Source: Candidatus Sumerlaea chitinivorans (lineage in GTDB: Bacteria > Sumerlaeota > Sumerlaeia > Sumerlaeales > Sumerlaeaceae). From it: a stretch of 64,000 nucleotides of DNA. Below the pieces are notes generated by a model. The model saw only the letters and a program-made list of their open reading frames with translations. It did not search any database and was not told where the DNA came from. The DNA lies in assembly GCA_003290465.1 (NCBI GenBank), contig CP030759.1, positions 1,205,144 to 1,269,143 on the forward strand. Reading direction: 5' to 3'. Shown in pieces: positions 15,339-32,934 of the stretch (positions are counted from its first letter, which is position 1; each line of letters opens with the position of its first letter). The position numbers were made by a program, and so were the translations under genes.

Positions 15339-15799
15339 GGCTGCCTCCCTTGGTGTAGGCGTGTTGTCATGGTTACGCGCAAAGGACGATGCGGGAACGC
15401 CCCAAACATGCAGGATGCAGTTGCCGAAAGCTCCAGCATTCCGTGCTCGCGTCGTCGCACCCGCAACACGGTCTGTTCATTCGGGGCAAGGTCGGCTGCG
15501 GTCGGATTCGCAAAGGGATGTTCCCCTTCGGTGAGGGTTGCCAGACGCTCCGGCGACGCGACTTTCCACCATTCAAGTTCGTTCTGAGCCAACACACTGA
15601 GCCTTAGGCGTTCTTGGCTCACCCGAGTCCCCATCAGTGCCCGCTCACCGATTGTTAGGAATGCCAGAAATCCGGCGCTGACAATCGCAGCGACGACAAT
15701 CAGTTCAAGCAAGGTTATGGCGCGCGAGCGGTGCAGTGTCAGTTTGAGAAAGATTCGACGTCTGCGTTCCATATCGGCGGTCCTCCTTCTCACAGCCAC
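15335..15799 (-). CDS. Prepilin-type N-terminal cleavage/methylation-domain protein (pseudopilin)
   Basis: 154 aa; leader ...LHRSRA followed by ITLLELIVVAAIVSAGFLAFL (Glu at +5, Ala at -1). Track start is GTG; an in-frame ATG (MERRRR...) lies at 15772. Confidence 0.65.
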   Translation of the reverse strand: MAVRRRTADMERRRRIFLKLTLHRSRAITLLELIVVAAIVSAGFLAFLTIGERALMGTRVSQERLRLSVLAQNELEWWKVASPERLATLTEGEHPFANPTAADLAPNEQTVLRVRRREHGMLELSATASCMFGAFPHRPLRVTMTTRLHQGRQP

Positions 15800-16824: not shown

Positions 16825-16834
16825 GGTTCACTCC

Positions 16835-18088: not shown

Positions 18089-18131
18089 CGCCTCGCGTGG
18101 AAAATTAGCTGGCCAGCCTGCGCCCCCATCC

Positions 18132-19397: not shown

Positions 19398-19557
19398 ATC
19401 TTTAAGGTCCTTCGCCTGAGTGTTAGACGTCCAAGCCATGCGATTCGTTGACACTTGCCTCGCAATTGCTCTATCCCGCTCCAAATCCCCGTTCCTTGCT
19501 GCCGCTCCTCGCACACCTTGACTTCGCAAAGTTGGCAAATCGGTGGAGAATCCTGGT

Positions 19558-20610
19558 TTACCGCATCCCGAAGATCCAAAACATGAGCAACGGCCAGACG
19601 GTGAGGACGTATATGCCCATGAGTAAGCCGAGGAACGCCATCATCATGGGTTCGATTGCGCGAAGGGAGCGCCCAAATTCGTCAAGTTCATCAAGCGTGC
19701 GCTGGGCAAGGTCCTGAAAGTATTCGGTGACTGTGTCCTGAAGAAAGGCTTGTTCCATTAACCAGCACTCGTGGGAGGGGAACCATTCTTCTTTTCCAAG
19801 CGCCTCTGTGGGCGAAGCCCCACGAGCGAGCGTGTCACGTAGTTTTTTGCACACTCCTGCCAAAAGTGGTTCTTCACGCATTTGGGCAATTGCCTCGAGT
19901 CCGTCCCGCAAGCAAGCTGCTCCTCCCGAAACGAAGGTCCCCATTAGGGTAGCAAAATGGTACAAATTTGCGCGTGCGACCACGACGCCAAAGAATGGTA
20001 GGGTCGTAAGAAAACGTTCGAAGCGGGCTCTCCGCGGAGCAGAGAGGATAAGAGCAGACACTGCAAAAGTACTGAGGGCCAACACTACCAACGTACACAG
20101 GACTGCCCACCGCAAAAGGCGTACGGGTAACAAAAACTCAGTGCTCTGGGATTCAAATCCGCGGCTCATGGCTGCAAATTCCAACAATGCATACGGTTCA
20201 TTCGAAAGCGACGCGAGATACGACTCACAAACAATCATCAGAATGGCCGCGATCACCAAAACCACCACGGGATAGGTAATTGTGCGCAGGTAGGCACTCT
20301 GAATACGCCGGCGGGCTTCGACGTACGCGACAATCCGCCGAAACCACACATCCAGCTCGCCTGAGGTCTCGCCCGCAGCGATCAAGCTAATGATCGGACG
20401 AGGCAGCGGGCAGCGGGCCTTGGTCAAGGCTTCGCTCAAGCTGAGGCCTAATCGAAGGAATTCCTCTGTCACCTCAAGTGCTTGAGCAAATCTACGATTC
20501 TTCACTCCCCTACGGATAGCCGGGAGCACATCTACCGGAGCCAGTCCGACCGAAAGTCCGGCACTAAGTTCCCGTACAAAGAGCTCCAAATCTCGCCATG
20601 AGGTTCGCAT
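19558..20610 (-). CDS. Type II secretion / type IV pilus platform protein, GspF/PilC family (paralog B)
   Basis: 350 aa; two T2SSF-like repeats (RFAQALEVTEEFLRLGLSLSEALTKA...IISLIAAGETSGELDVWF; LMGTFVSGGAACLRDGLEAIAQ...LMEQAFLQDTVTEYFQDLAQ), three predicted TM segments; ATG preceded by AGGAGGG. Confidence 0.75.
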   Translation of the reverse strand: MRTSWRDLELFVRELSAGLSVGLAPVDVLPAIRRGVKNRRFAQALEVTEEFLRLGLSLSEALTKARCPLPRPIISLIAAGETSGELDVWFRRIVAYVEARRRIQSAYLRTITYPVVVLVIAAILMIVCESYLASLSNEPYALLEFAAMSRGFESQSTEFLLPVRLLRWAVLCTLVVLALSTFAVSALILSAPRRARFERFLTTLPFFGVVVARANLYHFATLMGTFVSGGAACLRDGLEAIAQMREEPLLAGVCKKLRDTLARGASPTEALGKEEWFPSHECWLMEQAFLQDTVTEYFQDLAQRTLDELDEFGRSLRAIEPMMMAFLGLLMGIYVLTVWPLLMFWIFGMR

Positions 20611-20620
20611 CGGTTCCCTC

Positions 20621-21844
20621 CTACTCGAATGGCACGATAGTTACGACAGAGAAGAGGCTGAGATAGATGGCTGACACCAAAATGATGCCAAAAGCTAAGA
20701 CGGCGAGATGCACAATCGCTGCAATAAGCTGCATCATTAGAGCCCGTTGAAGTTTCCACTTTTGCTGAAGCTCGTAGGCACCTGCGCAAAGGACCTCAGG
20801 CGCGGTTTCCGACACGCTAGCCCGCATAAGCACCTGATGAAACACCGTGGGAAGAGACGGAATCCCAGCGAAGAGATTCGGCAACGAAGCACCGGCCCTG
20901 ATTCGTTCCCGTAGGAGCGGAAGGCATCGCTGCAGAACCGGGTCCCCCGTGGCTCGTACTGCCGAGTCAAATGCAGACAAGGGATCTACGTTCCATTTCA
21001 GAAGCATTCCAAGCGTGTGTGCAAAGCGGGCCAACTTTCGAAGCCAAAGAAGTTCGGCCAGCCGTTCACTTCTGTTTGCAAGAAGGCGCCGAACCCAGAG
21101 GCTTCGTCGTTCGAGAACACGAATTCCCCACAGAAGAACAAGCAACAATACCAGACCCTGCCATAAAGGAACCGAGTATCGAACGACCTGCTGCGTGAAA
21201 ACGGGTGGTTGCTTGTGGAGATCCGCGTAGAGTTCCGCAATCCTCGGCAAGGTTTGAATGGCGAATAGGCCAAGGATAAAAGAGAATACGATGAGCTCTC
21301 CAACGATGATCCCAACCCACACCTTGCGGCTAAAACCATGCTCGCGATCCACTAACTCCTCACTTGCGAGAAACCGCAAAGCCTCGGGAAGGCTGTCCGA
21401 ATCCTCTGCAGCGGAAATGACTGCAAGGTGCGCACCGGGGACGGGCGCGCGTCGGAACAAGGTGGGTTTTAACGTCTCCGCCAGCGAAGCACCAACCTCC
21501 AATCGCTTCGATGCCCGTAGCAACAGGCGCCGCACGCGCCATGGCATCTTGATGGAGCTTGAGGCAAAGGCACGGGTAGCGTCGGCAAGTCTGCCGCGTA
21601 CCAAGCACGCTGTCCCGAGGTAACGGTAAAACTGATACCTCCAGCCATAGGGCGCCCCTGCGGTAGATCTCCCTAAGAGCAAGGCAAAAGCGTAAACAGT
21701 AAGTAAAATCCCACCTAAGAACAAGATTGAGTCATGAAACACACGAAAGAGGTTCCGGTCCGCCTGTTCCACCCACGCGATGAGCATGACGTAGAGATAA
21801 GCGGGTAAGAGAACCCAGAACAGATATCGTGGCACTCGACTCAT
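20621..21844 (-). CDS. Type II secretion / type IV pilus platform protein, GspF/PilC family (paralog A)
   Basis: 407 aa; N-terminal TM helices then two T2SSF-like repeats (LEVGASLAETLKP...HLAVISAAEDSDSLPEALRFLA; FDSAVRATGDPVLQRCLPLLRERIRAGASLPNLF...LMRASVSETAPEVL); ATG preceded by AAAGGGGA. First gene of the cluster. Confidence 0.7.
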   Translation of the reverse strand: MSRVPRYLFWVLLPAYLYVMLIAWVEQADRNLFRVFHDSILFLGGILLTVYAFALLLGRSTAGAPYGWRYQFYRYLGTACLVRGRLADATRAFASSSIKMPWRVRRLLLRASKRLEVGASLAETLKPTLFRRAPVPGAHLAVISAAEDSDSLPEALRFLASEELVDREHGFSRKVWVGIIVGELIVFSFILGLFAIQTLPRIAELYADLHKQPPVFTQQVVRYSVPLWQGLVLLLVLLWGIRVLERRSLWVRRLLANRSERLAELLWLRKLARFAHTLGMLLKWNVDPLSAFDSAVRATGDPVLQRCLPLLRERIRAGASLPNLFAGIPSLPTVFHQVLMRASVSETAPEVLCAGAYELQQKWKLQRALMMQLIAAIVHLAVLAFGIILVSAIYLSLFSVVTIVPFE

Positions 21845-22088: not shown

Positions 22089-22967
22089 CTAATCGCATGG
22101 GACAGGAGTAGATTCCCCGCGCGTCCCCTCGAGTGTGGCCACGGCAGCGGAGCCAAGGATCATCGCCGCGCCGATCCAGAAGCGCATCGGCATTGTGTCC
22201 CCCAGGAATAGAGTTCCAAACATGGCGCTCCAAACCACCACAGTAAGCGAGAGCAATCCGCCTTGCGCCGCCGTCAAAACCCGGTAGGCATTCGTCATCA
22301 GGAGCTGAGCGACCGTTGCAAATGCCACCATGCCGACCACAAGCAGCCATTCCCGAGCGTGCGGAACCACAAAGTGCAATGCGGTGGGAAAAGCCGTCAC
22401 AATGGTCCCTACGAGGGTAAAGAAAATCACAATCCAGCCACTCGACTCGGTTCCGCGAAGGAGCCGCACGCTGACGATCGCTGATCCGGTCAGAGCCCCC
22501 GCCGCAAGTCCGACGAGGTCCCCAAAGCTAAACGCAAAGTGTCCAGTTGAGAAATCCAAGGTGAGAAGGGTCCCCACAACCCCGAGTGGAAGCGACCAGA
22601 GGGTAAGCCGATGTGGTTTTTCGCGCAGTTCAAACCACGCAAAGAGGGCCGACCACACGGGATACGTATAGCAGTAGAGCGTTGCCTTCGGTAGCCCAAT
22701 GTGATCGATGGCGTAGAAATAACAAAGCAGCGCGGCGGTACCAGCGACCCCACGCCACAGAAGGCGTCGGTAATTCCCGGGACGTCCAAGGGGGCGACGT
22801 GTGACCACGTAGAGGCACACGACGAGGATGAGACCGAAGAGACTGCGGAAGAAGACTTTCTCTATGCTCGGTAAACGCGGGAGCAGGCGCGTACACAACG
22901 CCATCAAGGCAAAACAGAACGCGGAGGCAAGCATAAGGAGCTGACCGCGGAGAACTCCGTGACGCAT
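22089..22967 (-). CDS. EamA/DMT-family transporter
   Basis: 292 aa, about 10 TM helices, duplicated EamA-like halves (LMLASAFCFALMALCTRL...; ...SAMFGTLFLGDTMPMRFWIGAAMILGSAAVA). Confidence 0.75.
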   Translation of the reverse strand: MRHGVLRGQLLMLASAFCFALMALCTRLLPRLPSIEKVFFRSLFGLILVVCLYVVTRRPLGRPGNYRRLLWRGVAGTAALLCYFYAIDHIGLPKATLYCYTYPVWSALFAWFELREKPHRLTLWSLPLGVVGTLLTLDFSTGHFAFSFGDLVGLAAGALTGSAIVSVRLLRGTESSGWIVIFFTLVGTIVTAFPTALHFVVPHAREWLLVVGMVAFATVAQLLMTNAYRVLTAAQGGLLSLTVVVWSAMFGTLFLGDTMPMRFWIGAAMILGSAAVATLEGTRGESTPVPCD

Positions 22968-22971
22968 CGCT

Positions 22972-24660
22972 TTAGCGTTCCTTTATCGTGTCTGGGAGGG
23001 TGGGCCGAGCCGATGCACGAGGCTTATAGAGGAAAAATTGCCACAGGTGCCCTCCTTGAATCACCCGATCGAGCCGGTATGTGTCGCGTAAAGCTTCCCG
23101 CATTCCGGGCGTGAACGCATCCGTGTAGGCGTCCGAAAACAAGTCCGTCGTGGACGCAAAAATTGTGAAACGCCCGGCCCGAATATCTTTCAGAAACCTT
23201 GATTCGTCCCAACGACCTTGCCGCGCCAATTCACTCATAATAAACGGCTGAAACAGCACAGGCTTTTCTGCGAAGAGCGCATAGGCGGCCACCTCGCTCA
23301 CGACGTCCCCCGAAGCTCGGGCGAGTTCGCTCGTTAAGCGAGCTGCAGCTTCGAAATCCGCGGGTGTCGGCCGCTTCCATTCGCCGAAAATCACCTTTTC
23401 CCAGCGGTGCAGGTGCACTGCGTGAAGTGCGAGGAGAAACGCCATTAGGAGAATCCACGCCTTCCATGAGTCGGACTGCGCGGCGGTGCGTTTCCGTAAT
23501 CCATATCCGATAGCAACCCCAACCGCAAGGCTCCACGCTGCAAGAGGTTCAAGGAGATAATTCTCCGCGCTTCCAGCTTTAGGAAGAGAGAGGAAATTCG
23601 TGACAGACAACATCTGGTAAGCGACGCAAGCGATAAGAAGGAAGCGCGTTCGCAAAAGTTCCTGTTCCGCCCTCGAGGTCACAGCCGTCGAGACAGGATT
23701 AGAAGAGGCCGCCGCGTCCAGTGTGCCATGAATCGTCGCGAGAGGACGCCAGGACCGGACAAGTTCACGCACAAGAAGGGCAAAAGCCAGGAGCCCGGCG
23801 AGCAGCCACCAACGGTAGAAGCGCCACACATGGGCCGCCCACACCAGCAAGTCCGGCCAGTGATAGCGATTCATGTTGTACCAAATTGTGTGAACAGCGA
23901 ATTGCCCACCCGTAAGAGCACTCAGGGCAAGGAACGGCAGGCCTGCCGCAGCTACAAATGTAACCGCGTAACGTCGAAAGGCAGCACGGTCCCACACCCA
24001 CAAAGCAATTAGCGAAACAACGGGCACGGAATACATCGTCTGCTTGGTGAACAAAGCCAGTGCAGCAAGACATGCTGCGCCGATATGCATCCACTTTTTC
24101 TCGGAACCCCCAAGCAGAAGCGCCAAGCTCGACAGCGTCAGCGCTAAGGCGAGCAAATCTACGCGAAAGTAGGCCGACCAGTTGTAGCACTCAAAGGTGG
24201 CTAAGAAAAGAAGCGGAGCAAGCAGAGCAGCAAAGATCTGACGCGTGAGTGCATAGACGATGGTGAACAGTAGAATGCCGGTGGAGAACACCGACAGTGC
24301 AGTGATGAGGCGCCCGACAAAGAAGCTGGGAGTGTGAAGATTCGTCAGGCTTCCTGCCACCCAGAGATAGAAGGGAGGATAGGTCCCAACGAGATAGGGG
24401 TAGTCGTTCAGTTCGCGGTAGAGCGGTTTGCCTTGGGCAACACGTACAGCTTGAGCGAGGAGTGCCCCTTCTTCGTTGTCCAGTTGAAGCATCGGATGAG
24501 CAAGCGCCTCAGTCACACGTACATAAACGTGTGGGATCAGCACCGCCAGCCCCAACACACATAAGACTACGAGCCCCCGAATGAGTATGGCACCGAAGTC
24601 GTCGGGCCATCGGTTTTCCTGCGTTGCTTCCTCCTCAACCTGCACAGGATTGTTCATCAT
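22972..24660 (-). CDS. Polytopic membrane glycosyltransferase (GT39/ArnT/PMT-like fold)
   Basis: ORF 22972..24717; likely start at MMNNPVQ. Multi-TM N-terminal region with Tyr/Trp-rich loops and a C-terminal soluble domain, typical of lipid-linked-sugar-using glycosyltransferases. Family assignment is by pattern only. Confidence 0.5.
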   Translation of the reverse strand: MMNNPVQVEEEATQENRWPDDFGAILIRGLVVLCVLGLAVLIPHVYVRVTEALAHPMLQLDNEEGALLAQAVRVAQGKPLYRELNDYPYLVGTYPPFYLWVAGSLTNLHTPSFFVGRLITALSVFSTGILLFTIVYALTRQIFAALLAPLLFLATFECYNWSAYFRVDLLALALTLSSLALLLGGSEKKWMHIGAACLAALALFTKQTMYSVPVVSLIALWVWDRAAFRRYAVTFVAAAGLPFLALSALTGGQFAVHTIWYNMNRYHWPDLLVWAAHVWRFYRWWLLAGLLAFALLVRELVRSWRPLATIHGTLDAAASSNPVSTAVTSRAEQELLRTRFLLIACVAYQMLSVTNFLSLPKAGSAENYLLEPLAAWSLAVGVAIGYGLRKRTAAQSDSWKAWILLMAFLLALHAVHLHRWEKVIFGEWKRPTPADFEAAARLTSELARASGDVVSEVAAYALFAEKPVLFQPFIMSELARQGRWDESRFLKDIRAGRFTIFASTTDLFSDAYTDAFTPGMREALRDTYRLDRVIQGGHLWQFFLYKPRASARPTLPDTIKER

Positions 24661-25879
24661 CCGCCTCTTGAGGAGCAGAATGAATGGTCTGGGTCGCCGC
24701 AAGCCGGTGGAGGCCACGCAACACCGCGGCGCCTACAACGTCACCGCGTAAAGCTTCCATGCACATGGGCTGCTTGTCGCAGGTCTTTAAATAGCATGGG
24801 CTGCAGCTGAAATCGGTCACAATTTTCTCACCACGATCATAAAGCTCAATTTCAACGGGGGAAGTTGAGCCAAAGATTGCGACGACCCATTTCTGTCGGG
24901 CAATCGCGATATGCATTGCCAGACTGTCGGAGCTCACGACTAAATCACAGGCATCCACCACACCGACGAACTCGTCGAGCGTATTGCCGCAGCCGGTGTC
25001 GAAGAGATAGGGACAGCGCTGAAGGATCTGGGCGTTGAGTTCGCGCTCGGCTTCACCTCCGAGAAGCAGCAACGATACGTGTGGAAGGTGCGCATGCAAG
25101 AACTCGCACAACTCAACCCACCCTGCTAAGGTCCACTGCTTGGTTCGAAAAACTGAGCCGCAACCCGTGTTGATCCCGATGCGCGGTGGCTGGGGTACCC
25201 CGGCGAGAATCTCGGCGCGACGACGCTGACCGTTTTCAGTCAAAAAAAGTTGGTAGGGATCGCGCGCGTATGGCAGGCAGGCCATTTCGGCAATGATTTC
25301 TGGATACGTTTTCCGATTCTTGCGAAATTTCAGCTCGTCGCTCACCCCGAGAAGCAAGGCATATTCCGACTCAGGATTGAATACCGTCGGCGTATTCCAT
25401 TGCGTAGGTGCAAAACCAAGGTGTCTACGGGCAGGAACCTTTCCCGCAAGTGCAAGCGGCTCACTTTCCTTCTCAAAGTTTAAGAGAAGATCAAACGTCT
25501 CGCGCATGAGGGTTTGAACCGTTTCGCCGTCGAGGGCCAACAACCGGTCTATATTCGGGTTTGCCATCAGCAACGGAATGGACGGAGGGGCAGTCACCCA
25601 CGTGATATGGGAGCGGGGATACGCTCGGCGCAACGGAGCCAAAAGGGTTGTCGTGCGGAGCACATCGCCCATGGCACCGGTTTTGATGATCAGGATGCGC
25701 ACCTGTCCGGCCTCACCAAAGGCGCCCGGGGCGGTCACCTTGACTGGACTTGCCGGGTTGCCAACCACCTCGCTCCGCCGCTCGTACCATTGGCAATCTC
25801 GGCATTCATTGCCGTACTTGCACGGCTTGTAGCCGTTGTAGAGAACGCAATCGAATTTGATGTCTCTGAATTCAAGCAT
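24635..25879 (-). CDS. Glycosyltransferase family 9 (ADP-heptose:LPS heptosyltransferase-like) with Cys-rich N-terminal extension
   Basis: 414 aa; GT9 pattern VRILIIKTGAMGDVLRTTTLLAPLRRAYPRSHITWV and C-terminal ...CDLVVSSDSLAMHIAIARQKWVVAIFGSTSP; N-terminal ~40 aa MLEFRDIKFDCVLYNGYKPCKYGNECRDCQWY contains 5 Cys. Confidence 0.75.
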   Translation of the reverse strand: MLEFRDIKFDCVLYNGYKPCKYGNECRDCQWYERRSEVVGNPASPVKVTAPGAFGEAGQVRILIIKTGAMGDVLRTTTLLAPLRRAYPRSHITWVTAPPSIPLLMANPNIDRLLALDGETVQTLMRETFDLLLNFEKESEPLALAGKVPARRHLGFAPTQWNTPTVFNPESEYALLLGVSDELKFRKNRKTYPEIIAEMACLPYARDPYQLFLTENGQRRRAEILAGVPQPPRIGINTGCGSVFRTKQWTLAGWVELCEFLHAHLPHVSLLLLGGEAERELNAQILQRCPYLFDTGCGNTLDEFVGVVDACDLVVSSDSLAMHIAIARQKWVVAIFGSTSPVEIELYDRGEKIVTDFSCSPCYLKTCDKQPMCMEALRGDVVGAAVLRGLHRLAATQTIHSAPQEADDEQSCAG

Positions 25880-26039: not shown

Positions 26040-28412
26040 CTATTCTGCAGAGTTTTCCCCCTTGGAGTTCGCAGCGGCAAGGGCTTGGCGAAACTGGATC
26101 TCGTAGAACCGGGCATATCGCCCACCCAATTTCACAAGTTCGTCGTGGGTACCACGTTCTACGATTTTCCCCTGATCAAGCACGAGAATGCTGTCCGCAT
26201 GCAGAATCGTGGAGAGTCGGTGGGCGATGACAAAGACCGTCCGGCCCTTGATGATGCGGCTAAGGGCTTCTTGGATGAGAGCTTCAGTCTCGGAGTCGAG
26301 CTGGCTGGTGGCCTCGTCCAGGATAAGGATTGGGGCGTTCTTCACAAATGCACGGGCAATGGCCAAACGTTGGCGTTCTCCGCCCGAGAGACGGACGCCG
26401 CGCCCACCGACCACTGTGTCGTAGCCGTGGGGCAATCGCATGATAAAATTGTGGGCATTTGCTGCTTTTGCGGCTTCGATGATTCGCTCCCGAGGAATAT
26501 CATCCGGCATACCGTACGCAATGTTACGGGCGATGGTGTCATTGAAGAGAATCACATCCTGAGTTATGATGGCAATCTGGTCGCGCAGAGAACGCAGCCG
26601 AACACTGCGGATATCCACACCATCAAATAGGATCCGTCCCTCGGTGGGGTCGTAAAAGCGCGGCAGTAGATTTACAAGGGTGGTTTTACCCGCCCCCGTT
26701 TCGCCAACAATCGCGGTGACATGGCCGGCGGGGACGGTGAAGTGGACATCCTTCAGCACATGGTGGGACTCCGCAGAATACCGAAACCACACGTGCTCGA
26801 AGGAAATCTCGCGTTGGACAGGTCGCAGTTCGGGAGCACTCGGGTCATCCACAATCTTCGCTTTTGTGTCTAAGACGCGGAATACCCGATCACTCCCAGC
26901 CATGCCACGTTGAATTTTTGCAATGACCCGGCTGCTGCCCTTTAGGGGGCGGAAAACTTGTGTGAGGAACAAAATAAAGAGGACGAAGTCTGAGCCGCTA
27001 AGCTCGCGAGTCTGAAGCACATAGTAGCCACCCGCCAGAATCATGGCAGAGACTGTCACGATGCCCAAGAGAGCGACCAAACCAGTTCCGAGCTCTTCGG
27101 CGATGACTGTTTTTAGAGTGCGACCGAAAACATTCCAGCTTTCACGCTCGTAGCGGTTTGCCTCCTTCGTCTCCATATTGTAAGCCTTCACGACCCGGAT
27201 TCCGCTGAATGTCTCTTCGGCTATTGAGGCAATTTGGGCACGGATCTCTTGGACACGCTTTGAGATTTTACGCACCTTGCGCCCAATTCCATAGAGCAGC
27301 AATCCCAGAATCGGGGCGACGCCAAAACTGAGCAGCGTGAGTGGCGGAGAAATAAAGAGCATTGCGATGATGAGCGTGACAACCGTGAGAGGCGTTTTGA
27401 GAACATTTGAGAAAAGCACTTCAATGGCGCCGCTGATCGCCATGACATCTTGCATGATTGTGGATAGAAGCGTACCGACAGCCCGGCGATTGTAGTACTC
27501 CATGTCCAGCGTCAGCATATGCCTGTAGACATGGTTGCGGAGCCGTAACAAACAGAGGTTTCCCAGATAGGCGCTCAAGTACCCCGCAAAAAAGGCGGCA
27601 GTCACCATGCAGAGCGCAGAGACGACCATGGCCCCCAGAATCAGACCCAGCAAACGGAACTTATTCTCGGAGCTGGTCATGACGTAGTCCTGAAGTCGCT
27701 CAAGATACGGAAGTGTGCGTTTCGTGAACTCGGCTTTGAGGGACGAAATCCATCCCGTGTGGTGCTTTTTCGTGAGCACGGGCACGGGCACATCCTTCAG
27801 CTTAGTGGTGAGGAGTGCAACAGCCGGTGGAGCCCCCTCAGGATAGATTTCGAACCACTCGTGAGGATCGAGCCCATGTAGATTGGTTTCCCCTTGCGGT
27901 AGGATAATGGTGAGCTTGACGCCACGTTGTGCAGAAACCATGCGGCCAAAATAACATTGGGCCCAGCCACTTTCATCAATTCGGTGAACTTGTGATAAAT
28001 CAAGAATGACCCACTTGTGCGGGGGCTTGAGTAACGCTGCTAAAGCGCCGTGGAGTTCCTCCGCCGCACGTGATCCCGCAAGTTCCCCTGCGGCGCGCAA
28101 GGCATACGTTTCCTCCCCAACGGGTTGAGGCGGAGCAAGCTCGAATGATGCTTTTTCAGCGGCCTTGGTGACATCGGTCAGACGGTTCTTGATAAGAAGC
28201 TCAAGTGCGGGACGAGTAAGCGAAAGTGTCGTCACTGTGAACAGGGCCTCAAAGAGCATCGCTAGTACAAGGCCAGCGACGACCCACTTGGTGCCATGCA
28301 AATACGTCACGAGACGCCGGTAAAGGCCTAAATCCGTGTAGCGACGTTTACTCACTCGGCCGACTTCCCACCGACAGCGCTTTCGAGCTTCTGCAAATAA
28401 ATCGCGAGACAA
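26040..28412 (-). CDS. ABC exporter (fused TMD-NBD, MsbA-like) with STAS-like domain inserted after TM1
   Basis: 790 aa; NBD motifs GETGAGKTTL (Walker A), LSGGERQRLAIARAF (signature), ILILDEATSQLD (Walker B), AHRLSTI. Between TM1 (WVVAGLVLAMLFEALFTVTTLSL) and the next TM helix lies ~170 aa including YALRAAGELAGSRAAEELHGALAALLKPPHKWVILDLSQVHRIDESGWAQCYFGRMVSAQRGVKLTIILP, matching the anti-sigma-antagonist (STAS) pattern. Start overlaps the upstream ORF by about 60 bp. Confidence 0.8.
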   Translation of the reverse strand: MSRDLFAEARKRCRWEVGRVSKRRYTDLGLYRRLVTYLHGTKWVVAGLVLAMLFEALFTVTTLSLTRPALELLIKNRLTDVTKAAEKASFELAPPQPVGEETYALRAAGELAGSRAAEELHGALAALLKPPHKWVILDLSQVHRIDESGWAQCYFGRMVSAQRGVKLTIILPQGETNLHGLDPHEWFEIYPEGAPPAVALLTTKLKDVPVPVLTKKHHTGWISSLKAEFTKRTLPYLERLQDYVMTSSENKFRLLGLILGAMVVSALCMVTAAFFAGYLSAYLGNLCLLRLRNHVYRHMLTLDMEYYNRRAVGTLLSTIMQDVMAISGAIEVLFSNVLKTPLTVVTLIIAMLFISPPLTLLSFGVAPILGLLLYGIGRKVRKISKRVQEIRAQIASIAEETFSGIRVVKAYNMETKEANRYERESWNVFGRTLKTVIAEELGTGLVALLGIVTVSAMILAGGYYVLQTRELSGSDFVLFILFLTQVFRPLKGSSRVIAKIQRGMAGSDRVFRVLDTKAKIVDDPSAPELRPVQREISFEHVWFRYSAESHHVLKDVHFTVPAGHVTAIVGETGAGKTTLVNLLPRFYDPTEGRILFDGVDIRSVRLRSLRDQIAIITQDVILFNDTIARNIAYGMPDDIPRERIIEAAKAANAHNFIMRLPHGYDTVVGGRGVRLSGGERQRLAIARAFVKNAPILILDEATSQLDSETEALIQEALSRIIKGRTVFVIAHRLSTILHADSILVLDQGKIVERGTHDELVKLGGRYARFYEIQFRQALAAANSKGENSAE

Positions 28413-29053
28413 GCGATTAGATAAACAATCGTGAAGCCCCCGCTAAACATTTCACGCGCCCAAACACCCCATGGGATCTTGAAAATTGTTTGCGGGCGGT
28501 GCGGATGGACGACACGCAACATCTCCGTGTCCACCATTTCCTCCAAGTCGCTGATGAACTGGAATCCTCGTTTCTCGAGTTGTGGCCGTAGCGTGATATT
28601 GTGAAATGAAGCAAAATCAAACACCATACGGATCGAAATCCGACGTGGCAAGAGCATATCATCCAAAAAATCTTCGCGGACCCAACTCTCCAGCCGGGTC
28701 TTAGGATCCAAAGGCATCGGTGCGTTCGCAACCTCGGAAAGATCGTAGACAAGATGCGGACCGCTTGAAGCAAAAAGCTTGCGAGCTTCGTGCTCCAAAA
28801 CCTCCATCACCGAGGCCGCCATCTCGTCCGGCAGGTTCCACGGAATAAAAGCCAAGACCACTTGGGGATCGACCTGCGCCAAGAGTAATTGCGATTGCTC
28901 AAACGCCTCGAAAGCAAAATCATAGTAGAGAGGGCGCAAGGCCGCCCACCGTTCAATGCCCTCCGTGACCTCGGCAAGCTCCAGATTCTTCTGCGCCACC
29001 AAGTCAGCGCAGCGGTTCAAATCGTAAAGTAATATCGGGTTCGAGTTTTCCAT
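28352..29053 (-). CDS. Hypothetical protein, first gene of the envelope operon
   Basis: ORF 28352..29092; likely start MENSNPILLYD. No recognisable motif. Co-directional with and overlapping the ABC exporter gene. Confidence 0.45.
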   Translation of the reverse strand: MENSNPILLYDLNRCADLVAQKNLELAEVTEGIERWAALRPLYYDFAFEAFEQSQLLLAQVDPQVVLAFIPWNLPDEMAASVMEVLEHEARKLFASSGPHLVYDLSEVANAPMPLDPKTRLESWVREDFLDDMLLPRRISIRMVFDFASFHNITLRPQLEKRGFQFISDLEEMVDTEMLRVVHPHRPQTIFKIPWGVWAREMFSGGFTIVYLIACLAIYLQKLESAVGGKSAE

Positions 29054-29389: not shown

Positions 29390-29779
29390 ATGACTGCTAC
29401 AAACATTTCCCACAAAGTCCTTGTTCTCCTGCCTGAAAGAGACAAGCCCGCATTCGCTGTTTCCACTGGAACTCCACACCCGATTGAATGGGTCGAGGCC
29501 ACGTCACTCGAGGAGGCCGCGCGTATGCTGCGCGAGCTCGAGTTCGATTTTACGGTGATTGATGCGGACAACCCCTCGATTGATTACCGGAAGTGCATTC
29601 ATTTCGTAAAATCCACTCAACCCAAAGCCCGGGTGGTTGTGGCTGCAGAGATTGGGGATGACGAAATGTGGCTGGATGCGCTCGATGCGGGGGCTTGCGA
29701 TCTCGTGGAGAAACCCATTGATGGGACGTATCTTGAGCGTCTGTGCCACCGCGCAGCAAGCCGCGCCGCCGCCGCGTAG
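29390..29779 (+). CDS. Stand-alone receiver (REC)-like domain protein, degenerate
   Basis: ORF 29375..29779; ATG at 29390 preceded by GGAGG. Fold pattern of a CheY-like receiver (KVLVLL...FDFTVIDADNP...ARVVVAAEIGDD...DAGACDLVEKP) with candidate phospho-Asp and conserved Lys, but lacking the N-terminal acidic DD pair and the conserved Thr/Ser. Confidence 0.5.
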   Translation: MTATNISHKVLVLLPERDKPAFAVSTGTPHPIEWVEATSLEEAARMLRELEFDFTVIDADNPSIDYRKCIHFVKSTQPKARVVVAAEIGDDEMWLDALDAGACDLVEKPIDGTYLERLCHRAASRAAAA

Positions 29780-29898
29780 AATTGTTTGCCATAATTTTCT
29801 AAAATTTGTGAAGTGCACCTTGACAACCACCTTCTTGTTTTCGCGAAGTTCTCTTTGTTAGAATGGGAAAATAGCGAATTTTGGTCATAGGAGAGCGC

Positions 29899-30936
29899 AT
29901 GTTACTACCATCGCACTCGAAGAGGAACAAGAAGCGGGTTATTCTTTTTTTAGATACAGGTGATAATTGCCGATGTCCACTCGCAAAAGGCTACCTCACA
30001 AAACTTCTCGAAGAGCGTGGTATACGCCACATTGAGGTTAAAACGGCTGGTGTCATGACGCCAACGGGGCTCCTCCCCCAACCAGAAGTCGTCCAGTTAC
30101 TTAAAGAGGAAGGGGTCGACATCTCGCACCATCGCTCTCACCCCGTCACCGTCCAAATGATCGAAGATGCCGATCTCATCCTTGGGATGTCGTCTTTTCA
30201 CGTCCAGACGGCGATTCGCCGGTCGCCGGCCGCTCGGGGCAAAGCATTTCTTCTCAAAGAATATGTGGGTTATAGCGGCAAGGCCATCCAAATTGGCGAC
30301 CCAATGGGGGGGACGATGGAAATCTTCAAGAAATGCTTCGAGCAAATCAAGGATGCCCTCGAAAAGCTCGTCGAAATGGATATTATCCGCAAGCCGCCCG
30401 AAGACTGGACCGAACCCCCAGCACGAGCTCCGCGCGAAGGTGAACCCTTAGAGGCAGAGGCTGTAGGGGCAGGCGGAGATGGGCACGTAGGTTCGACCAC
30501 AACCGCAAAAAAAGAAACGGCTGCTGCAGGAGCGATCGAAGCTGGTACAAAACCCCGGCGCCGAGGGCGCCCACCCAAAAGCGCGCAGAAATCCGTAGAG
30601 GTGGCCCAATCCGCAGAACTCAAACGCAAGCGGGGACGTCCGCCGAAAAGCGCCAAAGCCGGTGAAGCTCAGGCGCCAGCAAAAGCTCCAAAAATAGGAA
30701 AGGCTACCGCCGCCGAGACAGGGCGCCGGAGAGCGAGTGCCCCCAAAGCCAAGAAAGCGGCAGCAGGACGGAGCAGACGCGTAGCGGTCAAAGGTTCTGC
30801 GAAAGCGGAATCAGCCCCAAAAGTGAGAGAAAAAAGCACTTCTAAGAAGCAGAAGACCGGGGAGAAAACCTCAACCAGAACTCCTCAACGTACAAAGAAA
30901 GCATCTGCAAAAACAGCTACAAAAAAATCCAAGTAA
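29899..30936 (+). CDS. LMW-PTP-fold protein with Cys-to-Asp P-loop substitution and C-terminal AT-hook tail
   Basis: ORF 29881..30936 (TTG); ATG at 29899 preceded by AGGAG. N-terminus VILFLDTGDNCRCPLAKG aligns residue-for-residue with the LMW-PTP P-loop (I-x-F-V-C-T-G-N-x-C-R-S-P), with Asp at the nucleophile position; DPMGG general-acid loop retained. C-terminal ~180 aa Lys/Ala/Pro-rich with two AT-hook cores (KPRRRGRPPKS, KRKRGRPPKS). Confidence 0.65.
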   Translation: MLLPSHSKRNKKRVILFLDTGDNCRCPLAKGYLTKLLEERGIRHIEVKTAGVMTPTGLLPQPEVVQLLKEEGVDISHHRSHPVTVQMIEDADLILGMSSFHVQTAIRRSPAARGKAFLLKEYVGYSGKAIQIGDPMGGTMEIFKKCFEQIKDALEKLVEMDIIRKPPEDWTEPPARAPREGEPLEAEAVGAGGDGHVGSTTTAKKETAAAGAIEAGTKPRRRGRPPKSAQKSVEVAQSAELKRKRGRPPKSAKAGEAQAPAKAPKIGKATAAETGRRRASAPKAKKAAAGRSRRVAVKGSAKAESAPKVREKSTSKKQKTGEKTSTRTPQRTKKASAKTATKKSK

Positions 30937-30948
30937 GGAGCACTGTGC

Positions 30949-32934
30949 ATGAACAGTAGCTATCGTTCAATGTCAGTTAACGTGATTCTTTTACTACTCG
31001 CGGGAGTGCTAATTGGAAACGTATCAGTTGGCGCTCCCGAGAAAACGCGCAAGTCTCGTGTCACGCTAAAAGATGAGCAGCCAGAATTATCAACGACCCA
31101 TGTCAATGGGCCTTCTGTCGCATCTGGCAAGAATGACAAGATAAGCGCGCAGTCAGATGGTCCGACTTCAAGGGTTGCCACCTCCAAGGATGGAAAGACG
31201 GACAAAGTCACAACCTCCATTGATGTCGGGACGCCTGGGAATTTCCTGCTTGCTCGCGTCAAGGACAAGTACCTGCGGGATCCCGATGTCATGAACTATA
31301 AGCAACTGATGGACATCACCGAAGGTGGGGTGTGGACGGATGTCCGTGATCGTGAAACACTTGAGGACATGGTCCTTCAGGAAGTACTCTTTGATATCGT
31401 CCCCACTCTTCGTAAGGAGGAACATGGGAGCCTCCATGGTACGTATCCTTCCACCATGGAAGAGCGCATGTACCTTCGGGTCAGGATGCGCGAAGAGATA
31501 GAAAAAGAAACCACCCCGACTCGCGAGCAGCTCGAAGAATGGACTGCACGCAACATTTCCCGCTTCACCCGACCTGAGCGCGTGCACGCTTATCACCTCT
31601 TCATGCAGGTCTCGAAGGATAATCCGACCAGCAGCCTTGAAGCAGTGCGGCAGCGGATGGAAAAGGTAAAACAAGAGGCGGACGCCGGGACATCTTTTGC
31701 GCAGCTTGCTCGCAAGTACTCGGAAGCTGCCAGCGCCAAGGTGGGAGGCGAGATTGGATGGGTGACCCGCCGAATGCCAATCGGCGCGGAAAATAAGCCG
31801 ATGAACATTGTCCTCGAGAACGCCCTGTTTGCTCTTAAAACCGGTCAGGTCTCGGACATTCTTCAGACCTCCCATGGGCTCCACCTTATGTATGTTGCGG
31901 ACCGGCTCACGACCTACGTTCCTACAGTGGATGACCTCATTACAAGCCGTATCTTGCCGAGAAGTGCACAGGTGGAACTTGTTGCGCAGAAATGGCGGGA
32001 TTTGACGTCCGCAACCCGTCAGCGCTATCACGCGAAGATCCTCTTCGATCTAAATAAAGGCACCAAGCTGACGACCGACGTTCCTGCGGTGGAGTTCAAC
32101 GGCCAGAAGTGGACGGTGGGGGAACTTGAGCAATTGTATGGTCAGCGCTTCGTTTCCGCCTACCGCCTGCGTCAAGACACGACAGAGACTTTGGTAGGGC
32201 TCCTGAATGAAGTCCTGGACGAAATGGCGCAGGTACAGCTCGCACTCGACAGGAAGCTGGACAAAGATACCACCGTCGCCCGCAATTTGAAACTTCTTCA
32301 TGATCGAGTACTTTTCAAGAAAGCCTTCCAGCAGTACGTTGCGCAAACTTCACCGATTACTGAGAAGAAAATCAGAGATAAGTACGAGGCGGAAAAGGAC
32401 CGGAATCGGCTACCAGAGGCCACGGGTTACATCATTTCGATCAAAGTGCAACCAACGACGGTAGGCTTGGACCGCGAAGAAGCGCGAAAAATCGCGCGCG
32501 AGAAAGCTGAAGAGATCCGCAAACAGATCCTCGCGGGAGCTGATATCGAAAAGCTTGCTCGGGAGCACTCCCAAGACGATCGCGCCTCCTCGGGCGGACT
32601 GGTCCCGCGAAGCCGTCTTGCATCGCTGCATGACCTCTCGGGCCGACGTTTTGCCGCAGTGGCAAGTACACTCAAACCCGGTGAGGTGAGCGATGTGCGT
32701 GACTTTGGCGACGTCTTCGTAGTGGTGAAGCTTGTCGAACGCTGGCCCGGTGAGCCTCCTGCTATTGAAGAGGTGCGCGAGCGCTTGAAGGCAGCTCTCA
32801 CGAATGAGGCAAACCGTACTGCACGTGACCGGCTGATTAACGCGGCTGCACAAAAAGGCCTGTTGCGGTGGGCGAATCCGGCTGCAAGTTATGGAATCAC
32901 GCCCAAACCCAATCTGGCAGATGACCCGCAATGA
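30949..32934 (+). CDS. Periplasmic chaperone / peptidyl-prolyl isomerase, SurA/PpiD/PrsA-like (parvulin domains)
   Basis: 661 aa; signal peptide MSVNVILLLLAGVLIGNVSVGA; parvulin-like segments (FAQLARKYSEAASAKVGGEIGWVTR; LAREHSQDDRASSGGLVPRSRL...); ATG preceded by AAGGAG; 13 bp after the upstream gene. Confidence 0.7.
   Translation: MNSSYRSMSVNVILLLLAGVLIGNVSVGAPEKTRKSRVTLKDEQPELSTTHVNGPSVASGKNDKISAQSDGPTSRVATSKDGKTDKVTTSIDVGTPGNFLLARVKDKYLRDPDVMNYKQLMDITEGGVWTDVRDRETLEDMVLQEVLFDIVPTLRKEEHGSLHGTYPSTMEERMYLRVRMREEIEKETTPTREQLEEWTARNISRFTRPERVHAYHLFMQVSKDNPTSSLEAVRQRMEKVKQEADAGTSFAQLARKYSEAASAKVGGEIGWVTRRMPIGAENKPMNIVLENALFALKTGQVSDILQTSHGLHLMYVADRLTTYVPTVDDLITSRILPRSAQVELVAQKWRDLTSATRQRYHAKILFDLNKGTKLTTDVPAVEFNGQKWTVGELEQLYGQRFVSAYRLRQDTTETLVGLLNEVLDEMAQVQLALDRKLDKDTTVARNLKLLHDRVLFKKAFQQYVAQTSPITEKKIRDKYEAEKDRNRLPEATGYIISIKVQPTTVGLDREEARKIAREKAEEIRKQILAGADIEKLAREHSQDDRASSGGLVPRSRLASLHDLSGRRFAAVASTLKPGEVSDVRDFGDVFVVVKLVERWPGEPPAIEEVRERLKAALTNEANRTARDRLINAAAQKGLLRWANPAASYGITPKPNLADDPQ

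What the first reader, a model, noticed from the sequence alone, without database searches (positions are those of the whole stretch)
27870..28130. STAS-like domain inserted between TM1 and TM2 of an ABC exporter
Seen in sequence: the 790-aa ABC exporter has an N-terminal TM helix, then about 170 residues including GELAGSRAAEELHGALAALLKPPHKWVILDLSQVHRIDESGWAQCYFGRMVSAQRGVKLTIILP, which follows the STAS / anti-sigma-antagonist pattern (GEL...vvlDLS.V.fiDSsG...g.kl.l), before the remaining TM helices and the NBD. Established knowledge: in type-I ABC exporters the TM1-TM2 loop is short and extracytoplasmic, and STAS domains are normally cytoplasmic (SulP C-termini, SpoIIAA, MlaB). Inference: this is either an unusual extracytoplasmic STAS-like domain or a topology with an extra helix. 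The gene sits in an envelope operon with a GT9 heptosyltransferase, a GT39-like glycosyltransferase and an EamA transporter, so it may gate export of a glycolipid.
Basis: partly seen in the sequence, partly recalled or inferred. Interest (0 to 1): 0.65.

Follow-up and report, generated by a model that had tools for sequence, protein, structure and literature searches.

The report
Periplasmic STAS domain in MsbA-like exporter
A lipid-flippase-type ABC exporter from an uncultured bacterial phylum (Candidatus Sumerlaeota) carries a signalling-type STAS domain, known in the literature I could search only from the cytoplasm, spliced into its first outward-facing loop; this architecture turned up in no paper I searched.

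Summary
The quoted peptide is encoded exactly at window 27897-28088 (minus strand) in one uninterrupted gene, 26040-28355. The start is most likely a GTG, giving 771 aa rather than 790.

The protein is an MsbA-like type IV ABC half-transporter. About 180 residues sit between TM1 and TM2, where E. coli MsbA has a loop of roughly 14 residues. They comprise a STAS-fold core (aa 70-185), a Pro/Lys-rich linker and an extra helix leading into TM2.

Three independent lines support the STAS fold:
- Sub-threshold Pfam STAS hits in 10 of 21 orthologues.
- A family profile that retrieves only STAS proteins from the PDB.

No hydrophobic helix is conserved inside the insert, so canonical topology places it in the periplasm. 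The phosphorylatable serine of anti-sigma antagonists is not conserved.

The architecture is kept in about 22 orthologues. Every one that carries a taxon name is Candidatus Sumerlaeota. The glycosyltransferase neighbourhood holds only in closer relatives.

Function is inferred, not shown: most likely a periplasmic cap or docking module riding on the TM1-TM2 pair. I class it as a new variant of a known kind, of moderately high interest.

The parts
26040..28355 (-). Whole gene: 771-aa MsbA-like ABC half-transporter with the insert (GTG start at 28355, stop at 26040-26042).
   Evidence: ORF. An identical 771-aa protein, P0001, is on record with the same gene call. ABC_membrane scores 145 bits and ABC_tran 118 bits. 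The best NCBIfam model is MsbA TIGR02203 at 516.5 bits.
28191..28334 (-). Cytoplasmic elbow helix and TM1 (aa 8-55).
   Evidence: Full-length model helices H8-19, H23-45 and H47-55. Hydropathy peak. Aligns with E. coli MsbA residues 1-53. The N-terminus is basic, with 5-7 K+R in 22 residues.
27801..28148 (-). STAS-fold core of the insert (aa 70-185).
27753..27800 (-). Pro/Lys-rich basic linker after the STAS core (aa 186-201, LKDVPVPVLTKKHHTG).
   Evidence: No regular secondary structure and low pLDDT in the models. Net charge is 0 to +5 across orthologues and P192 is present in 21 of 22.
27672..27752 (-). Extra helix leading into TM2 (aa 202-228), with conserved K207 and the P216-Y-L-E motif.
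   Evidence: H202-227 in the full-length model is followed directly by H229-282, which is TM2. K207 is present in 20 of 22 orthologues and P216 in 22 of 22. The segment is moderately amphipathic, muH up to 0.52.
26871..27671 (-). TM2-TM6 of the transmembrane domain (aa 229-495).
   Evidence: PF00664 match. Aligns with MsbA from TM2 onward. The best Foldseek matches of the full model are MsbA structures, target-normalised TM-score 0.78.
26076..26810 (-). Nucleotide-binding domain (aa 516-760). Walker A (GETGAGKT), signature (LSGGERQR), Walker B with catalytic Glu (ILILDEATS) and the H-loop His are all intact.
   Evidence: PF00005 at 118 bits. These motifs are invariant in the 22-sequence alignment.
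28352..29053 (-). Upstream co-transcribed gene: a conserved 233-aa protein of unknown function with one C-terminal hydrophobic helix. Its stop overlaps the exporter's GTG start as GTGA.
   Evidence: Sequence, gene call. Orthologues occupy the same position in L001, L002 and L084. No Pfam, PDB or STAS-profile match.
24635..25879 (-). Downstream GT9 (heptosyltransferase-like) glycosyltransferase.
   Evidence: PF01075 at 63.5 bits. Weak matches to heptosyltransferase I, II and III models. PDB hits 3tov and 1psw. It follows the exporter in the window, L001, L002 and L084.
22972..24660 (-). GT-C type membrane glycosyltransferase (PMT_2, i.e. PMT/ArnT-like).
   Evidence: PF13231 at 27.1 bits, just above its cut-off. 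Gene call of 562 aa. Conserved in L001.
22089..22934 (-). EamA/DMT-family membrane transporter, last gene of the run.
   Evidence: PF00892 at 112.8 bits. Gene call. Conserved in L001.
29390..29779 (+). Divergently transcribed single-domain response regulator (129 aa).
   Evidence: PF00072. The same divergent gene sits next to the exporter in L084, L085 and L086 and in L002.

Best explanation
SHOWN OR STRONGLY SUPPORTED
- Window 26040-28355 (minus strand) encodes a 771-aa homodimer-type ABC half-transporter with the type IV (MsbA/Sav1866) fold, from a Candidatus Sumerlaeota bacterium.
- Its first extracytoplasmic loop, between TM1 and TM2, has been expanded by about 180 residues. The parts are a divergent STAS-fold domain (aa 70-185), a Pro/Lys-rich basic linker (186-201) and an extra helix (202-228) that runs into TM2.
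- The N-terminus is a basic cytoplasmic elbow helix and no hydrophobic helix is conserved in the insert. The STAS domain must therefore lie in the periplasm, two copies per dimer.
- It has lost the phosphorylatable serine of SpoIIAA/RsbV-type antagonists, as expected where there is neither ATP nor kinase. It keeps the G-x-L, D-L-S and helix-2 N-terminal positions that form the usual STAS contact face.

INFERRED
- The transporter flips a lipid A-core-like glycolipid made with the adjacent GT9 heptosyltransferase-like enzyme.
- The two STAS domains ride on the TM1-TM2 helices, which move during the ATP cycle. They act as a periplasmic cap or docking platform over the exit of the translocation cavity. 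They either close the exit in the inward-facing state or hold a periplasmic partner, such as the ArnT-like GT-C enzyme or a downstream lipid carrier, at the point where the substrate emerges.
For: Transporter identity
- ABC_membrane and ABC_tran are well above threshold.
- The best NCBIfam model is MsbA TIGR02203 at 516.5 bits, matching from model position 61, i.e. after TM1.
- The best half-transporter matches in the PDB are MsbA and Sav1866, again starting at TM2.
- The full-length model's best structural matches are MsbA structures, target-normalised TM-score 0.78.

Insert position
- It lies between E. coli MsbA D53 and D54.

STAS fold
- Pfam STAS and STAS_2 at E about 1e-3 in the window protein and independently in L001.
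- 10 of 21 orthologous inserts hit STAS, best 1.3e-5.
- All six PDB hits of the family profile are STAS proteins. The best is RsfB at E=2.8e-4, aligned over almost the whole domain.
- AlphaFold gives mean pLDDT 85.7 and 94-98 in the core, with beta-beta-beta-alpha-beta-alpha-beta-beta-alpha order.
- The top 22 Foldseek hits are all STAS.

Topology
- No TM-grade hydrophobic segment is conserved in the insert.
- The N-terminus and ICL1 are basic.

The insert is real and under selection
- 22 orthologues keep it. Insert identity is 23-52%, with R58, G90, L101, D119 and P216 invariant.
- Between L001 and L002, pN is 0.27 in the STAS core against pS 0.86.

Substrate context
- GT9 lies immediately downstream in four loci. 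A GT-C enzyme and EamA follow in the close relatives.
- This copy scores higher on the MsbA model than the insert-less exporter in the same window, 516 against 453 bits.

Precedent for a cap
- In MsRv1272c, ECL1 (residues 62-109) forms a helical hairpin that caps the exit of the substrate cavity (PMC12038006).
Against: - No experiment or dimer model places the STAS domains relative to the cavity exit. I could not read the model coordinates, so the cap or dock geometry is untested.
- Single-sequence Pfam scores are below the curated cut-offs: 20.0 against 22.6 bits, and 19.5-22 against 29.2.
- The MsbA equivalog cut-off is not reached, 516.5 against 602 bits.
- Of the lipid A-binding residues recalled for E. 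coli MsbA, only K299 is invariant. R78 is absent and R148 aligns next to a conserved Lys.
- The GT9, GT-C and EamA neighbours are missing in three more distant loci, L083, L085 and L086. The substrate inference therefore rests on a subset of the family.
- The STAS core evolves about nine times faster than the membrane domain, dN 0.33 against 0.037. That fits an accessory role but also a loosely constrained one.
- Whether Sumerlaeota make LPS was not established.
Confidence: 0.5

Rival explanations
1. The periplasmic STAS domain is a substrate acceptor. It binds the flipped lipid or glycolipid, or its head group, directly and hands it on, acting as a fused periplasmic carrier rather than a protein-docking cap.
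For: - From my own knowledge, the SpoIIAA-like fold is shared with lipid-binding CRAL-TRIO domains.
- A conserved basic Pro/Lys linker next to the domain could contact phosphate groups.
- The insert sits exactly where substrate leaves a type IV exporter.
Against: - No lipid-binding protein appears among the top structural matches. The closest are anti-sigma antagonists.
- The STAS core is small, about 115 aa, mildly acidic at net -3 to -6 in most orthologues, and shows no sign of a hydrophobic pocket at sequence level.
- The most conserved positions are the classic protein-contact face.
Confidence: 0.2
2. The domain is a periplasmic sensor or allosteric regulator. It senses an envelope signal or binds a periplasmic regulator and modulates ATPase and transport through TM1 and TM2. 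This would be analogous to STAS regulation of SLC26 transporters and to MlaB regulation of MlaF, but from the other side of the membrane.
For: - STAS domains are regulatory in all well-studied contexts: partner switching, SLC26, and MlaB (PMC7367683).
- A single-domain response regulator is divergently transcribed next to the exporter in the window and in L002, L084, L085 and L086. This hints at a regulated locus.
- The rapid evolution of the insert is typical of sensor or interaction surfaces.
Against: - The phospho-acceptor serine is not conserved.
- No candidate periplasmic partner or kinase is encoded nearby.
- The response regulator is cytoplasmic and its link to the exporter is only positional.
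Confidence: 0.15
3. The STAS domain is a constitutive dimerisation or stabilising module with no dynamic role. It simply holds the two half-transporters together on the periplasmic side.
For: - From my own knowledge of SLC26A9 and prestin cryo-EM structures, STAS domains form the main dimer contact in SLC26 transporters. SLC26 STAS domains are among the matches.
- The transporter is a half-transporter that must dimerise.
Against: - Type IV exporters must separate their TM1-TM2 wings to open outward. A permanent periplasmic clamp on ECL1 would oppose that.
- MsbA homologues dimerise well without any such domain.
Confidence: 0.1
4. The topology is non-canonical: the insert is cytoplasmic, or the N-terminal part is really a separate gene fused by an assembly or sequencing error.
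For: STAS domains are otherwise described as cytoplasmic. A literature search found no paper describing a periplasmic or extracytoplasmic STAS.
Against: - The reading frame is continuous.
- The same architecture is found in 22 independent assemblies.
- TM1 aligns with MsbA TM1, with the usual basic elbow helix before it.
- No second hydrophobic helix is conserved that could return the chain to the cytoplasm.
Confidence: 0.03

Closest known systems
MsbA (lipid A-core flippase; TIGR02203; e.g. PDB 8tso, 9bd6, 5tv4)
   Same: - Same fold and domain order: elbow helix, six TM helices and a C-terminal NBD with all catalytic motifs.
- 33% identity to E. coli MsbA.
- MsbA is the best family model and gives the best structural matches.
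- The gene sits next to a GT9 heptosyltransferase-like gene.
   Different: - About 180 extra residues in ECL1, including a folded STAS domain.
- The score is below the MsbA equivalog cut-off.
- The R78 equivalent is missing.
- The substrate is unknown.
SpoIIAA / RsbV / RsfB anti-sigma-factor antagonists (single-domain STAS, PF01740)
   Same: - Detectable profile similarity over the whole domain.
- The G-x-L and D-L-S motifs are retained.
   Different: - Inserted in a membrane-protein loop and predicted to be periplasmic rather than free and cytoplasmic.
- The phosphorylatable Ser (SpoIIAA S58) corresponds to E128 here and varies across orthologues.
- No partner kinase or phosphatase is encoded nearby.
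MlaB of the MlaFEDB lipid transporter (STAS subunit of an ABC transporter)
   Different: MlaB is a separate cytoplasmic subunit that binds the NBD MlaF (PMC7367683). Here the STAS is covalently inserted in an extracytoplasmic loop of the membrane domain, in a different ABC fold class.
MsRv1272c of the mycobacterial exporter MsRv1273c/72c (ECL1 helical hairpin), and from my own knowledge the external helix of PglK
   Same: A type IV ABC exporter with an extra structured element in ECL1 between TM1 and TM2. In MsRv1272c this element caps the exit of the substrate cavity (PMC12038006).
   Different: That element is a 48-residue helical hairpin. Here it is an autonomous alpha/beta STAS domain of about 115 residues plus a linker and an extra helix.
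MacB / LolCDE (type VII ABC transporters with a periplasmic domain between TM1 and TM2)
   Same: A large periplasmic domain inserted between TM1 and TM2 on helical extensions. This suggests that ATP-driven helix movements could be transmitted to the periplasm.
   Different: A completely different membrane fold (4-TM FtsX) and a different periplasmic domain (MacB_PCD). An example sits in the same window at 525-1757. The protein studied here has the six-helix ABC_membrane fold.

Membership tests
STAS domain superfamily (SpoIIAA-like fold; Pfam PF01740/PF13466) | Alpha/beta fold with a 4-5 stranded sheet packed by 4 helices, in the order of SpoIIAA. | tested here: met
   [not shown]
STAS domain superfamily (SpoIIAA-like fold; Pfam PF01740/PF13466) | Significant sequence match to STAS family models. 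| tested here: inconclusive
   Single sequences stay below the Pfam cut-offs: 20.0 against 22.6 bits, and 19.5-22 against 29.2. However, 10 of 21 orthologues hit STAS, best E 1.3e-5. The family profile finds only STAS proteins in the PDB, best E 2.8e-4.
SpoIIAA/RsbV-type anti-sigma antagonists (subfamily of STAS) | Conserved phosphorylatable Ser/Thr at the N-terminus of helix 2 (SpoIIAA S58), with a partner kinase. | tested here: not met
   The equivalent position is E128 in the window protein and varies across orthologues (E, D, V, M, G, P, H, S, T, A). No anti-sigma kinase gene is nearby.
STAS domains as described in the literature | Cytoplasmic location. | tested here: not met
   The insert lies between TM1 and TM2 of a canonical N-in exporter, with no extra TM helix. 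This is a prediction only, with no experimental topology.
Type IV (ABCB-like) ABC exporter half-transporter | ABC_membrane six-helix domain followed by an ABC ATPase with intact Walker A, Walker B, signature and H-loop. | tested here: met
   PF00664 at 145 bits and PF00005 at 118 bits. The motifs are invariant in 22 orthologues. Structural matches are to MsbA, Sav1866, TM287/288 and TmrAB.
MsbA (lipid A-core flippase) | Score above the curated equivalog cut-off of TIGR02203 / NF008381. | tested here: not met
   516.5 bits against a 602 cut-off, and 443.6 against 867. The match misses TM1 because of the insert. It is still the top-ranked model, and scores higher than the second exporter in the window at 452.9 bits.
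MsbA (lipid A-core flippase) | Basic residues that bind the lipid A glucosamine phosphates (E. coli R78, R148, K299; recalled from the MsbA-LPS structures). | tested here: inconclusive
   K299 is invariant. R148 aligns one position from an invariant Lys (VLKTP). R78 aligns with Ser, next to a 4-residue insertion in all the Sumerlaeota proteins.
MsbA (lipid A-core flippase) | Genomic association with LPS core or lipid A genes. | tested here: inconclusive
   A GT9 heptosyltransferase-like gene lies directly downstream in the window, L001, L002 and L084. It is absent in L083, L085 and L086. No lpx or lpt genes were seen in the window.
MsbA (lipid A-core flippase) | ATP-dependent flipping of lipid A-core. 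| not testable with these tools
   Requires biochemistry or genetics.
MacB/LolCDE type VII ABC transporters | 4-TM FtsX permease fold with a MacB_PCD periplasmic domain. | tested here: not met
   No FtsX or MacB_PCD match. The membrane domain is PF00664.

The most novel reading that the evidence does not exclude
The STAS domain, mounted on helical extensions of TM1 and TM2, does work in the periplasm. ATP-driven movement of the TM1-TM2 wing is transmitted to the domain so that it takes the flipped glycolipid and hands it to the next step (a modification enzyme or an outer-membrane transport bridge). That would be a MacB-like mechanotransmission principle grafted onto an MsbA-type flippase, using a fold so far reported only as a cytoplasmic regulator. 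It could replace or bypass a canonical extraction component in this phylum.
Probability: 0.15. Interest if true: 0.8.

Novelty: new variant of a known kind. Interest (0 to 1): 0.6.

Why it matters
In every setting described in the papers I could search, STAS domains are cytoplasmic. This includes partner-switching regulators, the C-termini of SLC26/SulP transporters, and MlaB. My literature searches found no report of an extracytoplasmic STAS, or of one inside an ABC exporter.

If the predicted topology is right, the fold can work without phosphorylation or nucleotides in the periplasm. It would sit at the very point where an MsbA-type flippase releases its lipid.

That bears on an open question in envelope biogenesis: how flipped glycolipids are passed from the flippase to periplasmic modification or transport machinery. 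It also provides a natural construct in which the two steps may be physically fused.

Finally, it marks ECL1 of type IV exporters as a site where whole domains can be inserted. This is useful for protein engineering and for annotating exporters from uncultured phyla.

Tried and rejected
- Homology search with the insert alone in the word-indexed 5.8-billion-protein database found nothing. Both are uninformative rather than negative.
- The exhaustive HMMER scan of 1.84 billion representatives with the insert found only the protein's own cluster, two N-terminal fragments with the same architecture (P0002, P0004) and one spurious repeat protein (P0003).
- I tested whether the upstream 233-aa protein is a second STAS-like module, because it contains a 'VYDLSEV' stretch. 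The profile-profile comparison with the insert family gave probability 0.4%. No PDB or Pfam match was found. Rejected.
- I checked loci with longer tblastn matches (L073, L009) for similar inserts. They have short ECL1 loops.
- dN/dS could not be computed properly because synonymous sites are saturated between L001 and L002. Only pN against pS is reported.
- The one Sumerlaeota genome paper available in the library does not mention LPS, outer membrane or MsbA, and a wider Sumerlaeota plus lipopolysaccharide search found nothing informative.
- The promoter and terminator scans gave nothing above the shuffled background.
Full report
**1. What is in the sequence**

The finding lies in a single minus-strand open reading frame, 26040-28412.

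The mechanical ORF starts at a TTG and gives 790 aa. The start is more likely the GTG at 28355, giving 771 aa, for three reasons:
- A protein with exactly that sequence is on record in public metagenome data (P0001), with the same gene call.
- Orthologues start at the equivalent position.
- The GTG overlaps the stop codon of the upstream gene as GTGA, a typical coupled junction.

All numbering below uses the 771-aa protein.

**2. The transporter**

- Pfam gives ABC_membrane (aa 218-471, 145 bits) and ABC_tran (118 bits).
- The best NCBIfam model is MsbA TIGR02203 at 516.5 bits. That is below the equivalog cut-off of 602, and the match starts only at model position 61.
- In the PDB, the best half-transporter matches are MsbA from several species and Sav1866, and again the matches start at TM2.
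- Walker A, the signature motif, Walker B with the catalytic Glu, and the H-loop are invariant among orthologues.
- A full-length AlphaFold model (mean pLDDT 78.7) matches MsbA structures best, with target-normalised TM-score 0.78.

**3. The insert and its topology**

Hydropathy shows TM1 at about aa 21-48, and the next hydrophobic helix from about aa 231.

In an alignment with E. coli MsbA, taken from NC_000913:
- Residues 1-55 align with MsbA 1-53 (elbow helix and TM1).
- Residues from about 222 align with MsbA 54 onward.
- About 170-180 extra residues therefore sit exactly in extracytoplasmic loop 1.

Across 22 orthologues, the highest 19-residue hydropathy inside the insert is 0.7-1.8, and the peak is not at a conserved position. 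TM2 scores 2.2-3.6. The N-terminus and ICL1 are rich in Lys and Arg.

With the canonical N-in orientation, the insert is periplasmic. The 'extra helix' alternative is not supported.

**4. Is it a STAS domain?**

- **Sequence.** Pfam STAS (E 6e-4) and STAS_2 (E 1.1e-3) are the only non-ABC families that hit this region, but both are below their gathering scores. The L001 orthologue gives the same weak hits independently. Scanned alone, 10 of 21 orthologous inserts hit STAS, best E 1.3e-5.
- **Profile.** A profile of the 21 inserts searched against all PDB sequences returns six hits, all STAS proteins: RsfB (E 2.8e-4), SpoIIAA, TM1442, a mycobacterial antagonist, and a stressosome component. The alignments cover nearly the whole domain.
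- **Structure.** AlphaFold on the insert alignment gives mean pLDDT 85.7, and 94-98 for residues 21-140 of the construct. The element order is that of SpoIIAA.
  - The top 22 Foldseek hits against the PDB are all STAS domains: SpoIIAA, RsbV, RsfB and MlaB. SLC26 STAS domains follow further down the list.

I therefore accept the fold assignment. The domain is a divergent member that single-sequence HMM thresholds miss.

**5. Anatomy of the insert**

| Residues | Element | Notes |
|---|---|---|
| 47-55 | Short extension of TM1 | |
| 56-69 | Low-confidence linker | |
| 70-185 | STAS core | Mildly acidic in most orthologues |
| 186-201 | Pro/Lys-rich basic linker | Net charge 0 to +5; P192 in 21 of 22 |
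| 202-228 | Helix continuous with TM2 | K207 in 20 of 22; invariant P216-Y-L-E |

Conserved STAS positions are G90 (the G-x-L turn before helix 1), L101, D119-L120 (the D-L-S motif at the end of strand 3), W131 at the start of helix 2, and P153. These cluster on the face that STAS domains normally use for partner contact. That reading comes from established knowledge of SpoIIAA-SpoIIAB complexes.

The residue equivalent to the phosphorylated Ser58 of SpoIIAA is E128 here, and it is not conserved. That is what one expects in a compartment without ATP.

**6. Distribution and selection**

- The word-indexed search with the full protein found 22 full-length proteins of about 730-816 aa and 48-65% identity that share the architecture (P0005-P0025), plus two shorter hits, P0026 and P0027, that I did not examine. 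Every one that carries a taxon name is Candidatus Sumerlaeota or Sumerlaeaceae.
- The species-level genome collection gave two full-length loci, both Sumerlaeota MAGs (L001 and L002).
- Identity to the window protein averages 34% in the insert, against 62% in the membrane domain and 68% in the NBD.
- Between L001 and L002, the STAS core has pN 0.27 against pS 0.86. Its dN is about nine times that of the membrane domain. It is constrained but fast-evolving.
- The exhaustive representative scan with the insert alone found only two further N-terminal fragments. At sequence level the insert is confined to this lineage, as far as these databases show.
- The nearest insert-less relatives, about 40% identical, are MsbA-like proteins of Zixibacteria, Nitrospiria, Gemmatimonadota and others.
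- Some of those relatives (P0089, P0114) have unrelated inserts of roughly 55-95 residues at the same site. ECL1 appears to be a permissive insertion point.

**7. Neighbourhood**

In the window the run on the minus strand is:
1. A 233-aa unknown protein with a single C-terminal hydrophobic helix.
2. The exporter.
3. GT9.
4. A GT-C (PMT_2) glycosyltransferase.
5. EamA.

A single-domain response regulator and a gene pair (LMW phosphatase, then a double PPIase) are transcribed divergently.

| Loci | Neighbourhood |
|---|---|
| L001, L002 | Same order as the window |
| L084 | Keeps the unknown protein, the exporter, GT9 and the response regulator |
| L085, L086 | Keep only the response regulator |
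| L083 | Keeps none of them |

From established knowledge:
- GT9 enzymes add heptose to Kdo2-lipid A on the cytoplasmic face, before MsbA flips it.
- ArnT-type GT-C enzymes, together with small DMT/EamA-type flippases (ArnE/F), modify lipid A on the periplasmic face.

The operon therefore reads as a coherent unit for assembling, flipping and modifying a lipid A-core-like molecule. That reading is inference and holds only for part of the family.

A second exporter without the insert lies at 51314-53146. It scores lower on the MsbA model, at 453 bits, and has no envelope-related neighbours.

**8. Mechanism**

What is shown is the architecture. What follows is inference.

In type IV exporters, TM1 and TM2 form part of a wing that moves as the transporter switches between inward- and outward-facing states. 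ECL1 lies at the rim of the periplasmic exit.

A homodimer would therefore carry two STAS domains at that exit. Each sits on a helix that extends TM2.

The nearest precedent is MsRv1272c, whose ECL1 helical hairpin caps the exit of the cavity (PMC12038006).

I consider a cap or docking role the most likely. It fits the conserved contact face and the known use of STAS domains as protein-binding modules.

The rivals are:
- Direct substrate acceptance.
- Periplasmic sensing or allosteric control.
- A purely structural dimer clamp.

None of these can be separated with the tools available, because I could not model the dimer or inspect model coordinates.

**9. Comparison with known systems and novelty**

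- The protein works like, and is built like, an MsbA-type flippase, but it fails the curated MsbA equivalog threshold.
- The insert has the STAS fold but is not a SpoIIAA-type antagonist, because it lacks the phospho-site.
- MlaB is the only STAS module described as part of an ABC transporter in the papers I retrieved. It is a separate cytoplasmic subunit that binds the ATPase (PMC7367683).
- Literature searches for periplasmic, extracytoplasmic or extracellular STAS, and for STAS together with MsbA, found nothing relevant.

I classify this as a new variant of a known kind: a lineage-specific domain insertion that places a fold otherwise reported only as cytoplasmic in the periplasm.

**10. 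Verdict**

- Confidence in the architecture and topology is about 0.9.
- Confidence in the explanation as a whole, including the cap or dock role and the glycolipid substrate, is about 0.5.
- Interest is 0.6.

Noticed in passing
window 28352-29053 (-): A conserved 233-aa protein of unknown function lies directly upstream. Its stop overlaps the exporter's GTG start (GTGA). It has one C-terminal hydrophobic helix (GGFTIVYLIACLAIYLQKL), which suggests a tail-anchored cytoplasmic protein. Orthologues sit in the same position in L001, L002 and L084. It has no Pfam or PDB match and no similarity to the STAS insert.
   Followed up: partly
window 29390-29779 (+): A single-domain response regulator (129 aa) is transcribed divergently from the exporter operon. 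This is the most widely conserved neighbour of the exporter, present in the window, L002, L084, L085 and L086. No cognate kinase was seen nearby.
   Followed up: partly
window 29881-30936 (+); L001 7399-8472 (-): A low-molecular-weight phosphotyrosine phosphatase domain is fused to a Lys/Ala/Pro-rich tail of about 190 aa. The tail carries repeated K/R-R-G-R-P-(P/R)-K-S motifs that resemble AT-hooks. The fusion is conserved in L001.
   Followed up: no
window 24635-25879 (-): The GT9 heptosyltransferase-like protein carries an N-terminal Cys cluster (FDC-x9-C-x6-C-x2-C) and a C-terminal cluster (CSPC-x4-C-x5-C). Both are conserved in L001 and L002. They could bind a metal or an iron-sulfur cluster.
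   Followed up: no
window 51314-53146 (-): A second MsbA-like type IV ABC exporter (610 aa) without any ECL1 insert. It is flanked by an aminotransferase and a SurA-like PPIase, and it scores lower on the MsbA model than the STAS-bearing copy (453 against 516 bits).
   Followed up: partly
proteins P0089 (631 aa) and P0114 (651 aa): MsbA-like exporters from other uncultured lineages carry unrelated inserts of roughly 55-95 residues at the same TM1-TM2 loop. ECL1 may be a recurrent insertion site in this fold.
   Followed up: partly
window 15790-21844 (-): A cluster of five type II secretion or type IV pilus-like genes lies immediately downstream of the envelope operon: four GspF/PilC-like paralogues and one GspE-like ATPase. 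Part of the arrangement is also seen in L001.
   Followed up: no
window 30949-32934 (+) and 53282-54448 (+): Two SurA/PpiD-like parvulin PPIases, one with two rotamase domains (661 aa). Together with a MacB/LolC-like permease at 525-1757, they are consistent with a double-membrane envelope, but no lpx or lpt genes were found in the window.
   Followed up: no
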